From assembly GCF_009914755.1 (NCBI RefSeq), contig NC_060926.1: a stretch of DNA of 64,000 nucleotides; one strand, 5' to 3'. The stretch's first letter is position 1. Each line of letters starts with the position of its first letter. A program made the translations under genes and the position numbers. Positions 13,377 through 56,815 of this stretch are shown here, in pieces. The DNA is from the human T2T-CHM13v2.0 reference genome, Homo sapiens. The notes beneath the pieces were generated by a model, which saw nothing but the letters and a program-made list of their open reading frames with translations, was not told where the DNA came from and searched no databases.

Positions 13377-17197
<3,821 letters not shown>

Positions 17198-51914: not shown

Positions 51915-52348
51915 AATTTAGATTCAGCTTCCCAATTTTGGTACATACAGCAGATATGATTTTGAAACAGATTGCATTAAATTTGTTTACCAAGTTGAGG
52001 AGTATTGCTATCTTTACAAACATTAAGTCTTCCAATCCATTAATTAGGAATTGTTTTATTCAATTATTCTTTTTTCTTTCTCCAATATTTTGTAGAATTT
52101 TGTATATGAATCTTACACTTCTTTTATTTCTTATTTTTTGGTGTTACTGTAAATTGAATTATTTCTATAATTTTATTTTTAGATTGTTCATTTCTATTGT
52201 ATAAATATATACTGATTGTTATATATTAGTTTTTATCCAGAAAACTTCCTGAATCATTAATAAGCTCTAATAATTTATTTTGGATTCCACAGGATTTTCT
52301 ATGCACAAAATATATCATTGGCAAGGAGAAATAATTTTACCTCTTTTC

Positions 52349-52737
52349 TGACATGGTTTGGACTTGTGTTCCTGTCCAAATCTCATGTCAAATTGTAATC
52401 CCCAATGTTGGAGCTGGGGCCTCGTGGGAGATGATGAGATCATGATGGCAGATTTCCCCCCTTGGTGCTCTTCTCCTGACAGAGTTCTCACGAGATCTAG
52501 TTGATTAAAAGTGTGTGGCACTTCCCCCACCTTCCTCCTGCTCCAGCCACGTGAAGACAACTGCTTCTGCTTTGTCTTTAACCATGAGTAAAAGTTTCCT
52601 GAGGCCTCCCCAGGTTGCCAGCCAGCATCATGCTTCCTGGACAGCCTATGGAACTGTGAGCCAATTAAACCTATTTTCTTTATAAATTACCCAGTCTTAG
52701 ATATTTCCTTATAGCAATGTGAGAATAAACTAAAACA
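52349..52737 (+). mobile_element. MSTA-like MaLR solo LTR
   Basis: TGACATGGTTTGG start, ends GAGAATAAACTAAAACA. 5-bp TSD TTTTC. Confidence 0.92.
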
Positions 52738-52940
52738 TTTTCCAATCTGCATGCCTTTTCTTTTTCTTTCCTAATTGCTCTAGCTAGGACCTCCAGTATA
52801 ATGCTGAATAGAAGTGGTAAGAGAAGACATCCTTGTCTGGTGCGCATCTTAGCAGGAAGCATTCATTTTTTCACTGTTAAGTATGATTTTAACTGCATGT
52901 TTTTGTAGATACTTTTTTTTTTATTAGGTTGAGGGTGTTC

Positions 52941-54067
52941 TGTATTTTGGATATGGGGATGGGGTAAGAAGGAACTGGAAGCCCCAGGAGGTGGGGAGAA
53001 TGAAAGAAAGAGAAATATGGGATGAAGTAGGGAAAGGGGAAGGTAAGTCAGGGTTATCCCATGGTCCCTCTGGAATTGAGGTCAGTTGATCCTTGCCTGG
53101 CATGGACATAGAGTTCATCCTTTAGGTAGTTACTGCCTTGACAAGGACAGAGCATGGGCCTGATGGACCACTGAAGCAGGAGGGTGATGCAGGAGGGTGA
53201 TGAAGTAGGAGGGAAAAGGAAGAGCAGTGTAGACAGAGGCAATGGGGAGTCTGAGGATGGTAGAACTTGTGGGTCCTCAAAAAAAAGCACATAATGCTAA
53301 AGGTTGGGAAACTGAGGGACAAAACTGGCATCTCCTAGTTCTTGCCAGTATCGGCTCAGGAGGCCCAGCTCTGCCTTGGCTCCCCTGGACTGCAGAGCCG
53401 AGACATGTAAGTGAGCTGTGGTTGGGAGCCATGGTGAACATCCAGGCCTCACAAAACAGCACTGAGGGATGGGCTGAGATCTTGGCTGCATTATGTTGGG
53501 GAGCTGGGAGGAATATGGCAGGTGGGGTGAGAAGCCCCTGGGAAAAGCTTCAGAGTGTGACAAGGAGGGGTGGCATGGGTCATAGCAAAGGTGCAGAGTT
53601 AGACAGCATCAGCCCAGGTTTCAGCCTCAGACAAGAGATGGGACTGAAAGGGTTCCTGCTTCTTTCTGTCCTTTCATAGGTTGGCCAACACCTAAGCAGC
53701 TCCCTATTTGCGTGTAACTGCTTCCTCCAGCCACATGGTAATGCCTTGTTTATGACCTGGTAGTCTAAAGAGCAAGGTGTTTTAGAGTAAGACATATGTG
53801 GAAGCTACCTCAGATGTTATCAGATTCTTCTGTCCTTCCTTCGACCCTTTCAAAAAGCACATGAGGAAACTGAGGTCCATAAAAGCCATTGGAATGGCAA
53901 AGGGAGAGAGAAGGTGGAATCCGCTTTTATTCAATTCTGCATTAAATAATGTCCTTAATTACTAAAGTGAAGTTCTGCTATGTCTGATGGGGAAGAGGCA
54001 TCTTGGCCATCATACAGACACAGGAAGGACCTGGAATCTTGATTATTGCCCACAAGGGAGGATACTC
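52941..54067. other. GC-rich non-repeat DNA segment inserted into L1MB ORF2
   Basis: Host L1 reads ...ATTAGGTTGAGGGTGTTC | TCTTCTATTTGCAGTGTGGTAAGTGTTTTATCAT... when the segment is removed. Abrupt GC shift, and no LTR termini, poly(A) or TSD. Confidence 0.8.
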
Positions 54068-56815
54068 TCTTCTATTTGCAGTGTGGTAAGTGTTTTATCA
54101 TAAAAGGGTGTTGGCTTTTGTAAAATGATTTTTCTACATCTACTTGGATGGTCATGTCATGTTTATCTTTTATTCTAATAATATGATGTATCATAATGAT
54201 TGGTGTTTGGGTGTTATCCAACATTTTATTTCTTGGATAAATCCCACTGAATTATTGTAGGTAATCCTTTTTATTAACATATGTTGCTGGATTTGGTTGC
54301 CTAGTATTGTGAGGATTTAGGTATCTGTATTTAAAAGGGATATTGGTCTATACTGGTCTTTTATTTTCAAGTGAAATCTTTTTATAGTTTTAGTATCTGA
54401 ATAATTCTGACCTTATAGAATTAGTAGATAAATGCTCTCACCTCTTCTTTTTTTTGTAAGCATTTGTGAAAGATTGATGATAATTCTTTTTGAATGTTTG
54501 GTATAATTTACTAGTGAAGCCATCTGGGACAGTATTTGTGTGTATGTGTAAAGTTTTTTAATCGCTAATATAACCTCCTTATTTGTAAGTCTATTCAGAT
54601 GATCTGTTTCTTCTTGAGTCAGTTTCAAGTGTCTATGTCATCCTAGAAATATTTCCATTTCATATATATTAACTTTTTGCATAAAATTGTTCAGAGTATT
54701 TCCTTCTAATCCTTTTTATTTTTTGTAAAAGCAGTAGTAATGCCCTATCATTCTTGATTTTAGTAATTTAAGTCCTCTCTTTTTGCCTTATCAGATCACT
54801 CTAGCTAAATGTTTCTCAATTTTGTTGATCTTTTCCAAGAACCAACTTTTCCAAAAGTTTTCTCTATTGTTTTTCTATCGCTTTTTTCATTTATTTATAC
54901 CTTAATCTTTATTATTTTTTTCTTCCTTTTTACTTGGAGTTCAGTTTTCTCTTCTTTTTCAAGTTTCTTGGTCAAACGTTTAGGTTACTGATTTGAAATC
55001 TTTTTATCTTTTAAAATAGTCATTTACCACTATTTTTGTAATTCTATAAATACCTCTTTAGCTGTGACCCATAAGTTTTGGTCTATTATGTTTTCATTTT
55101 AATTTGTCTCAAAGTGTCTTCTAATTTTTCTCATGGATCTTTTCAACCCCATAGTTATTTAGAAGTGTGTGGTCTAAATTTTATATACTTATGAATTTTT
55201 AAAATTTCATTGTCATTGATTTCAAATTTAATTTCATTGTGGTTGGAGAAAATACTTGACATAATTTTAATTTGTTAAAATGTATTCAAGCTATTTTAAG
55301 GCCTCATATATGGTCTATGATAGACAACATTCCATGGAAACATATGAAGAATTTGTATTCTACTGTTATTGGGTGGAGTGTTATAGAGATGTCTGTTACA
55401 TATAGTTTGTTTATAGTGTTATGTGAGTGTTCTGTCTCCTTGATGATCATTTGCCTAATTGTTGTATCCATTATTAAAAGTGGAGTATTGACTTTTCTAA
55501 GAATTTTTGTTACACTGTCTATTTCTCTCTTCAATTCTAGCAGTGTTTGCCTCATGAAGTTTGGGGCTCTTTTGTTAGGTGTGTAGATACGTTTACAATT
55601 GTTAAGACTTTCAATTCTATTGTCATTTTTTACTTTATTTTTATGCATTTTTTTAGTGGTTGCCCTAGTCATTGCAAGTAACATCATAATTTATAAAAGT
55701 ATAATTCCGATTAAAACCAATTGCTTATAATAATATACAAAAACTTTGCTCCTGTATATCCATTTTCTCCCCACTCCTTTGTGTTATTGTCGTACAAATT
55801 AAATCTTTATACATTGTACGCCCAGCAATACATATTTTTAATTATTGCTTTATGAAGCTGTCTTGTAAATCATATAGAACAAAAAAAAGGTTTACAAACA
55901 AAAAAGGATTACAAAAAGTTGGTTTTATAATTACCTATTAAGCTATTTTACAAGTACTCTTTATTTCTTTCTGTGTACTTTTTAATTATCTATTGTCATT
56001 TCATTTTAGCCTTTGGTATTTATGATAGGATATGTCTTCTAAGGATTAATTCTCTGTTTTTTTTAATCTAGTAATGTCTAATTATAATTTTCATATTTAA
56101 TGGATAGCTTTTTTCGATATAAAATAATTGGTTGGCAGTCATTTTCTTATAGCACTTTAAATATATCCTCCCACTACCTTCTGGTCTCTATGGTAGCTAC
56201 CAAGGATTTAACAGTTAATCAAGTAAATAGCCTTGTATACTATGAATCATGTTTCTTTCACTGCTCTTAAGATTCTCAGTCTTTCACTTTTAACAACCTA
56301 CAATGTGTCTAAAGATAGATTTCTTTGTTTGTCCTACTTGGAGTTCACTGAGCTTCTTGAGTAGGTAGATTAATGTTTTTATTGAATTTGGAACATTGTC
56401 AGCCATTATTTCTTCAAATATTCTTTTTGTCCTTTCATTTGTCTTCTCTTTCTGGGGTATTCCTTATATGTATGTTGGTATACATAATAGCACTTCACAG
56501 GTTCTGAAGCTCTGTTTATTCTTCTCTTTTTCTTTATTCTTTTCTCTTTATTTTCAAAATGTATATTTGACCTCTTTTGAAGTTAATTTACTCTTTCTTC
56601 TACCAACTCAAGTCTGCTGTTGAATCCTTCTGGTGAAACTTACAATTCAGTTATTGTATTTTTCCACATCAATAATTCTATTTGATTTCTTTTCACAATT
56701 TTTATTTTTAGTGATATTCTCTGGTGAAATAGTACTTGTACTTTATTTTTTTATACATGGTTTCCTTTAGATTTTTAAAAACTTATTTGTAGTAGCTGGT
56801 TTAGTCTTTATCTTA

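What the first reader, a model, noticed from the sequence alone, without database searches (positions are those of the whole stretch)
52941..54067. ~1.1 kb GC-rich 'foreign' segment inserted into an ancient L1 without poly(A), TSD or LTR ends
Seen: the antisense L1MB ORF2 breaks at ...GTTGAGGGTGTTC (52940) and resumes colinearly at TCTTCTATT...GTTTTATCAT (~54068). The intervening DNA matches no repeat I recognise. It is much more GC-rich than its flank: hand counts give 31/60 at 53041-53100 and 40/60 at 53341-53400, against 15/60 at 54121-54180. It carries MIR-like GGAAACTGAGG motifs and intron/exon-like signals. Inference: this is a piece of a distant GC-rich locus (DNA or unspliced pre-mRNA) captured at a double-strand break, i.e. 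a templated insertion or small non-retrotransposed duplication younger than the host L1. It would have imported potential splice and regulatory sequence.
Basis: partly seen in the sequence, partly recalled or inferred. Interest (0 to 1): 0.8.

Follow-up and report, generated by a model that had tools for sequence, protein, structure and literature searches.

The report
Ancient ADD2 intron copy inside L1
A 1.1-kb piece of an intron of the beta-adducin gene was copied long ago into an old L1 element 13 Mb away on the same chromosome, most likely as a patch at a DNA break; this is a known kind of event, and nothing shows that the copy does anything today.

Summary
Window 52941-54067 is a 48.8% GC block that splits one antisense L1 (flanks 28-36% GC) inside its reverse-transcriptase region. 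The L1 shows at most a 1-bp net gain or loss at the site.

The block has exactly one other copy, at chr2:70,715,735-70,716,836 (minus strand). Identity is 69% by BLAST and 73.6% by MAFFT, and the match covers bases 16-1117 of 1127.

That copy lies in unique, GC-rich DNA in an intron of ADD2 (beta-adducin). It is in the gene's sense orientation, about 230 bp upstream of the exon for residues 65-106.

An equal-length piece of the neighbouring L1 gave 5433 candidate copies at the same divergence, so the search can see a repeat family of this age. The block has no target-site duplication, poly(A), terminal repeats or real MIR homology.

Best reading: a fixed, ancient templated insertion of the endonuclease-independent "class 2" type, copied from the ADD2 intron and roughly as old as the host L1. 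Whether the template was DNA or pre-mRNA is unresolved.

It is a new example of a known kind, of modest interest.

The parts
52739..52940 (-). Left part of the host L1 (antisense on the + strand; ORF2 reverse-transcriptase region), ending at the left junction
   Evidence: BLAST to three other L1 copies in the window (70-77% identity over 84-87 nt) and the MAFFT alignment through to 52940. The matching position in a younger L1 lies inside Pfam RVT_1.
52941..54067 (+). The inserted block: a copy of ADD2 (beta-adducin) intronic DNA, read in the gene's sense direction on the + strand. It is 48.8% GC. BLAST homology to the donor runs 52956-54057. The outer 15 and 10 nt are too decayed to assign.
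   Evidence: 69% BLAST, 73.6% MAFFT identity, K2P 0.334. It is the only other genomic copy. Junction placement is ambiguous by 2-3 nt (flank ...GTTC / block end ...ACTC; block start T / flank T), read.
53172..53224 (+). Short tandem expansion (3 units of 13-16 nt spacing, TGAWGYAGGAGGG-type) inside the block. It falls in a 36-nt gap in the donor copy, so it probably arose after insertion.
   Evidence: the repeat finder family D2 and the 36-column gap in the donor row of alignment A1.
54068..55194 (-). Right part of the same host L1, resuming colinearly at the right junction
   Evidence: (65.9% over 337 nt to the younger L1). The genome search of this 1127-nt stretch gave 5433 candidates. 40 were scored, and the long hits are 67-72% identical.

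Best explanation
An old L1 element suffered a chromosome break inside its reverse-transcriptase region. The break was closed with a 1.1-kb patch copied from an intron of ADD2, 13 Mb away on the same chromosome arm. The donor stayed intact.

The patch is not a transposable element and did not come in through the L1 endonuclease route. It has no target-site duplication, no poly(A) and no TTTT/A-type target. That makes it a fixed, ancient counterpart of the 'class 2' templated sequence insertions described in human cells and populations.

The event is about as old as the host L1. The copy and its donor are as diverged as the L1 is from its own relatives, and more diverged than the 394-nt repeat that landed in the same L1 later.

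Shown: the colinear split, the single donor, its location and orientation in ADD2, the absence of mobile-element hallmarks, and the AT-ward decay of the copy.

Inferred: that the site was a double-strand break, the date, and the template. I lean slightly (about 55:45) to copying from DNA in cis rather than from a cDNA of unspliced ADD2 pre-mRNA. A random donor would fall within 13 Mb only about 0.8% of the time, and ADD2 is, as I recall, mainly a brain and red-cell gene rather than a germline one.
For: - Single donor. Whole-genome search with the block gives 2 of 2 scored candidates: itself and C2:70715735-70716836(-), at 69% identity over query 16-1117/1127. The reciprocal search with the donor copy gives the same two places. 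The 3' third alone also gives those two, at 74%.
- Pattern searches. A 28-nt block and a 33-place pattern, each allowing up to 3 mismatches, occur only at these two loci. Reversed-pattern controls gave 0.
- Sensitivity control. The adjacent L1 stretch of equal length gives 5433 candidates, with long hits at 67-72% identity.
- Extent of homology. It stops at the block and does not enter the L1 flanks. 50 kb around the donor shares nothing else with the window except ~300-nt hits (55 rows in all, top 40 viewed) that pile onto the same four window loci, which I read as Alu (label recalled).
- Donor is native to its locus. Its 298-nt upstream and 229-nt downstream flanks have no other genomic match. 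GC is 48-65% across about 2.7 kb there.
- Gene identity. The exon about 230 nt downstream translates to 42 residues matching PDB 8iah chain 3 'Beta-adducin' residues 65-106, E 7.5e-22. Two Aldolase_II exons lie further down the same strand.
- No TSD. The longest word shared by the two junction windows is 5 nt, which 1450 of 2000 shuffles reach.
- No terminal repeats. No terminal inverted or direct repeats were found.
- No poly(A). None lies at either end, and the target is GTTC|TCTT rather than TTTT/A (read).
- Substitution asymmetry. The window copy has A/T where the donor has G/C at 151 sites, against 73 the other way. This is expected for GC-rich DNA decaying in a 28% GC neighbourhood.
- Class definition. 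The class 2 TSIP definition, and intronic sequence among the TSIP donors in general, come from PMC5110952 (parts 1-3 of 4 read: the whole article text and about the first 31 references).
Against: - No outgroup genome was available. The empty site and the greater age of the donor are therefore inferred, not seen.
- At about 30% divergence a short TSD or a short A-tail could have eroded. A gapped, degenerate repeat can be forced across the junctions (TTCTGTATTT at 52938-52947 against TTCTATTT at 54070-54077).
- No curated repeat library could be consulted.
- The block (1127 nt) is longer than the experimental TSIs quoted in PMC5110952 (73-414 nt).
- The outer 15 and 10 nt are not assignable, so microhomology or filler at the junctions cannot be read.
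Confidence: 0.8

Rival explanations
1. L1-machinery retro-insertion (class 1 type). A fragment of unspliced ADD2 pre-mRNA was reverse-transcribed at an L1-endonuclease nick, and its poly(A) tail and TSD have since eroded.
For: The donor is transcribed (intronic) DNA and the copy is colinear and unpermuted. PMC5110952 describes L1 ORF2 acting in trans on intronic RNA. A gapped, degenerate 8-10-nt repeat can be forced across the junctions (read).
Against: No A-rich or T-rich tract lies at either end of the block. The T-run at 52914-52923 is 17 nt outside the junction and aligns to L1 sequence. No AATAAA/ATTAAA lies within 30 nt of either end. The target GTTC|TCTT is not TTTT/A. The exact-word test finds no TSD. 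The 394-nt repeat inserted 200 nt away in the same L1 still shows its 5-nt TSD, but it is younger, so this is only a partial control.
Confidence: 0.08
2. Both copies belong to a very low-copy ancient transposable element or other repeat family of which only two members remain detectable in human.
For: The two copies share both ends to within about 15 nt, as TE copies would. No repeat library could be consulted. Families with pairwise identity below about 65% would escape these searches.
Against: Only 2 loci were found in 3.1 Gb by five searches. The same tool returns thousands of candidates for the neighbouring L1 and the 394-nt repeat at 67-81% identity. There are no terminal inverted or direct repeats, TSD or poly(A). 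No Rfam family matches either copy. The second copy sits seamlessly in unique DNA of matching composition.
Confidence: 0.07
3. The direction is reversed, or a third and now lost source gave rise to both copies. On this reading the ADD2-intron copy is itself an insertion.
For: Nothing in a two-copy comparison roots the event. The donor's ancestry was not checked in outgroups.
Against: The window copy is demonstrably derived because it splits an L1. No third copy exists. The ADD2 copy has unique flanks of the same composition and no boundary marks. The 2:1 excess of A/T in the window copy at differing sites fits a GC-rich origin.
Confidence: 0.03
4. The two L1 flanks are separate insertions and the block is ancestral local DNA between them. 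Alternatively, the block entered by reverse-transcriptase template switching while the L1 itself was integrating.
For: None beyond the general possibility.
Against: The flanks abut to within 1 bp on a reference L1 and share one orientation. The ADD2 fragment is antisense to the L1, so a switch between two sense RNAs cannot give it. A return to the same base is also implausible.
Confidence: 0.01

Closest known systems
Class 2 templated sequence insertions / TSIPs (Onozawa and Aplan; PMC5110952, parts 1-3 of 4 read: all of the article text)
   Same: The sequence is copied from a distant locus with the donor left intact. Intronic DNA is among the TSIP donors the paper lists. There is no TSD, no poly(A) and no L1-endonuclease target. 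It is interpreted as a patch at a double-strand break.
   Different: This one is ancient and presumably fixed rather than polymorphic. At 1127 nt it is longer than the 73-414-nt experimental events quoted there. Its donor is in cis, 13 Mb away, whereas the experimental donors showed no chromosomal preference. The junction fine structure (microhomology, filler) is no longer readable.
Class 1 TSIPs and other L1-mediated retrocopies of non-L1 RNA
   Same: A non-repeat, transcribed sequence is copied to a new place.
   Different: TSD, poly(A) tail with upstream signal, and the TTTT/A target were all looked for here and not found.
Segmental duplication (recalled definition: at least 1 kb and at least 90% identity)
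   Same: Intrachromosomal, non-TE duplicated DNA just over 1 kb long.
   Different: Identity is 69-74%, far below the threshold. The copy is a clean insertion into a repeat rather than a block with extended flanks.
Solo LTR / ordinary TE insertion, as exemplified by the 394-nt element at 52345-52738 in the same L1
   Same: Both interrupt the same L1 colinearly.
   Different: The 394-nt element has TG...CA ends and a TTTTC duplication. It has 8643 genomic candidates, with full-length hits at 76-81%. The 1.1-kb block has none of these.

Membership tests
Class 2 templated sequence insertion | [quoted passage not shown] | tested here: met
   One donor at C2:70715735-70716836, 13.06 Mb away, still present. 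Homology is limited to the block.
Class 2 templated sequence insertion | No duplication of recipient sequence of 5 bp or more at the junctions | tested here: met
   The longest shared word is 5 nt (TATTT or GGATA), not placed as a TSD, and 1450 of 2000 shuffles reach that length. Caveat: about 30% divergence could hide a short TSD.
Class 2 templated sequence insertion | No poly(A) tract and no nearby polyadenylation signal | tested here: met
   Read from then on both strands. The only T-run (52914-52923) is L1 sequence 17 nt outside the junction.
Class 2 templated sequence insertion | End-joining marks: microhomology, microdeletion, non-templated bases | tested here: inconclusive
   Net change in the L1 is at most 1 bp. 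There are 2-3 nt of junction ambiguity. 15 and 10 nt at the ends are not assignable to donor or filler.
Class 2 templated sequence insertion | RNA (cDNA) origin of the patch | not testable with these tools
   The donor is intronic and in sense orientation, which allows but does not show an RNA template.
Class 2 templated sequence insertion | Polymorphic among humans (the 'P' of TSIP) | not tested
   Only one human assembly is held. The divergence (K2P 0.334) implies an old and presumably fixed event.
Transposable element (any class) | Multiple dispersed copies | tested here: not met
   2 loci in the genome. The controls gave 5433 and 8643 candidates.
Transposable element (any class) | Terminal inverted or long terminal repeats, poly(A) tail, TSD | tested here: not met
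   and reading.
Transposable element (any class) | Match to a curated consensus (Dfam/Repbase) | not testable with these tools
   No repeat library is on hand. Rfam gave nothing for either copy.
MIR SINE | Homology to MIR beyond the core motif | tested here: not met
   An nhmmer profile of 30 genomic MIR copies matches only 15 nt (window) and 13 nt (donor), E 0.02 and 0.43.
Segmental duplication | At least 90% identity over at least 1 kb (definition recalled) | tested here: not met
   69% by BLAST and 73.6% by MAFFT over about 1.1 kb.

The most novel reading that the evidence does not exclude
The copy carried a working module out of the ADD2 intron, and part of it is still under constraint in both places. 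Three observations point that way.

- One 28-nt block is identical in both copies. About 0.05 such runs are expected at 73.6% identity over 1056 aligned sites (my estimate).
- The last 53 nt are 87% identical.
- A polypyrimidine-AG ... GT pair that looks like a small cassette exon is kept in both.

If this is right, a break-repair patch duplicated a splice or regulatory element into a gene desert some 70-110 million years ago.
Probability: 0.05. Interest if true: 0.5.

Novelty: new member of a known kind. Interest (0 to 1): 0.3.

Why it matters
Templated insertions without L1 hallmarks are known mainly from cell-culture breaks and from young human polymorphisms. This case is a clean, datable, fixed example. 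It has a single identifiable donor in cis, and its boundaries are defined by a colinear L1.

Such cases can calibrate how often break-repair patches, rather than transposons, add kilobase-scale DNA to mammalian genomes. They can also explain 'unannotated' GC-rich islands inside old repeats. For annotation, the result means this block should not be taken for a new repeat family or a gene fragment.

Tried and rejected
- **MIR content.** The GGAAACTGAGG motifs suggested a MIR inside the block, and by eye another one upstream of the donor. A profile from 30 genomic MIR copies matched only 12-15 nt, and the donor's upstream flank has no other genomic match. Rejected.
- **Structured RNA.** Rfam with permissive thresholds on 52500-54500 gave only two sub-threshold chance hits (E 0.66 and 0.87). 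The donor locus gave none.
- **Direct Pfam proof of L1 on the flanks.** Three open fragments of the decayed host L1 gave no RVT_1 hit, only sub-threshold chance matches. An earlier attempt failed on stop codons. The younger L1 in the window served as a proxy instead.
- **Larger paralogous region.** 50 kb around the donor against the window showed only this block plus ~300-nt hits (top 40 of 55 rows viewed) that I read as Alu.
- **Circular-DNA intermediate.** The copy is colinear with the donor and not permuted, so this is disfavoured.
- **Template switching during L1 integration.** Rejected on orientation and on the exact return to the same position.
- **Literature.** No paper in the library holds both 'ADD2' and 'templated insertion'. 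That one search is the only basis for saying I found no prior description.
- **Pattern search.** A 33-place version was run in its place.

Full report
**What is there.**

Both flanks align, in reverse orientation, to a younger L1 elsewhere in the window. The left flank reaches 52843<->15339 and the right flank starts at 54093<->15217. Without the block, the host has 122 bases between these anchors and the younger L1 has 121. One L1 was therefore split with at most a 1-bp net change. A five-sequence alignment shows the same thing at base level: the host reads GTTC|TCTTCTATT where another copy reads GTTCACTTCTATT.

The younger L1 carries a 696-residue open frame whose residues 233-489 match Pfam RVT_1. 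The junction maps to about residue 340, inside the reverse-transcriptase region. Short open fragments of the decayed host L1 did not reach Pfam significance themselves. The subfamily name L1MB could not be tested.

**Where the block came from.** The whole T2T genome could be searched. With the block as query, the first look produced two candidates and both were scored. They were the block itself and chr2:70,715,735-70,716,836 on the minus strand, at 69% identity over query bases 16-1117 of 1127.

- The reciprocal search with that second copy returned the same two places.
- The 3' third alone returned the same two (74%).
- A 28-nt block shared by both copies, and a 33-place pattern, each allowing three mismatches, occur only at these two loci. 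Reversed-pattern controls gave zero.
- BLAST with 300 nt of flank added shows that the homology covers window 52956-54057 and does not enter the L1 (alignment).

**Controls for sensitivity.** The adjacent 1127 nt of L1 gave 5433 first-look candidates. 40 were scored, and the long hits are 67-72% identical. The 394-nt element at 52345-52738 gave 8643 candidates. 40 were scored, and the 39 non-self hits are 76-81% identical and nearly full-length. The tool therefore does see repeat families at the divergence in question, and the block is not one.

**The donor locus.** In the orientation of the block, the second copy is followed after about 230 nt by a 3' splice site and an open exon. That exon's 42 residues match PDB 8iah chain 3, 'Beta-adducin', residues 65-106 (E 7.5e-22). 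Two exons matching Pfam Aldolase_II lie 12-17 kb further along the same strand. The donor is therefore an ADD2 intron, and the block reads in the gene's sense direction. That direction is antisense to the host L1.

The donor's 298-nt upstream and 229-nt downstream flanks have no other match in the genome. G+C is 48-65% for about 2.7 kb around it. The sequence is thus native in composition and context at ADD2 and foreign in the window. Comparing 50 kb around the donor with the whole window found no other shared DNA, apart from ~300-nt hits (55 rows in all, top 40 viewed) stacked on the same four window loci, which I read as Alu (label recalled).

**What it is not.**
- There is no target-site duplication. 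The longest word shared by the two junction windows is 5 nt, and 1450 of 2000 shuffles do as well.
- There are no terminal inverted or long direct repeats.
- There is no poly(A) or poly(T) at either end. The T-run at 52914-52923 is L1 sequence 17 nt outside the junction.
- The target GTTC|TCTT is not the TTTT/A site of L1 endonuclease (read).
- The GGAAACTGAGG motifs are not MIR elements. A profile of 30 genomic MIR copies matches only 13-15 nt.
- Rfam finds nothing.

By contrast, the 394-nt element 200 nt to the left in the same L1 still shows TG...CA ends and a TTTTC duplication. By recall it is a MaLR-type solo LTR. It serves as a within-locus example of what a real TE insertion looks like, although it is younger.

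**Age and direction.** Over 1056 aligned sites the two copies are 73.6% identical (166 transitions, 113 transversions, K2P 0.334). Identity is fairly even along the length, at 0.63-0.87 per 100 columns. Half of 0.334 per lineage, at an assumed 1.5-2.5 x 10^-9 substitutions per site per year, gives very roughly 70-110 million years. This is an inference, not a measurement.

On the same tool's scale, the block-donor pair (69%) is as diverged as the host L1 is from its relatives (67-72%). It is more diverged than the 394-nt repeat (76-81%). The order of events is therefore L1 first, then the block not long after, then the 394-nt repeat.

At differing sites the window copy has A/T against donor G/C 151 times, and the reverse 73 times. 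This fits GC-rich DNA relaxing in an AT-rich neighbourhood, and so fits the direction ADD2 to window.

**Mechanism.** The anatomy fits the 'class 2' templated sequence insertions of Onozawa and Aplan (PMC5110952; parts 1-3 of 4 read, covering the whole article text). In these, a patch copied from a distant locus closes a double-strand break. They lack a TSD, a poly(A) and an endonuclease target site. The paper lists intronic sequence among the donors of TSIPs in general.

Those authors favour a cDNA patch made from RNA, while allowing polymerase template switching. Here the template cannot be read from the sequence. I lean slightly to DNA copied in cis for two reasons. The donor lies 13.06 Mb away on the same arm, and a random donor would fall that close about 0.8% of the time (26 Mb of 3117 Mb, my estimate). 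ADD2 is also, by recall, not a germline-expressed gene.

A circular intermediate is disfavoured because the copy is not permuted. Template switching during L1 integration is excluded by the opposite orientation and by the exact return to the same position.

**Limits.**
- No other mammalian genome and no repeat library were available. The empty site, the donor's greater age and the absence of a curated family are not directly shown.
- The outermost 15 and 10 nt of the block cannot be assigned.
- Notes from earlier stages were closed.
- One literature search found no paper that mentions both ADD2 and templated insertion. I make no wider claim about print.

**Verdict.** This is a well-defined, ancient example of a known kind of event. 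There is no evidence of present function, and interest is modest.

Noticed in passing
window 52345-52738 (+): A 394-nt repeat inserted in the same L1, with TG...CA ends and a 5-nt TTTTC duplication. It has 8643 genomic candidates, with near full-length hits at 76-81% identity. By recall it looks like a MaLR (THE1/MST-type) solo LTR, but the name was not tested.
   Followed up: partly
window 53494-53521 and 54005-54057: A 28-nt stretch is identical between the block and its ADD2 donor. About 0.05 such runs are expected at 73.6% identity. The last 53 aligned nt are 87% identical, above the 63-78% seen elsewhere. This could be chance or shared constraint.
   Followed up: no
window 53659-53745; L002 about 1900-1815 (- strand): A pyrimidine tract plus AG, followed about 60 nt later by G|GT, is kept in both copies and looks like a small cassette exon in the ADD2 intron. 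Seen by eye only; no splice scoring or transcript data were used.
   Followed up: no
window 53172-53224: A short tandem expansion of an AGGAGGG-containing unit is present in the window copy. It corresponds to a 36-nt gap in the donor, so it probably arose after insertion.
   Followed up: partly
window 14225-16315 (+): A much younger L1 with a 696-residue uninterrupted stretch of ORF2, including a complete RVT_1 domain. It was used here only as a ruler for the old L1.
   Followed up: partly
G000:C9:119293200-119293781 (+): The strongest Aldolase_II match in the genome (140 bits, profile 3-182 in one piece) carries two in-frame stops. It looks like an intronless, broken copy of an Aldolase_II-family gene, that is, a processed pseudogene. 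Not examined.
   Followed up: no
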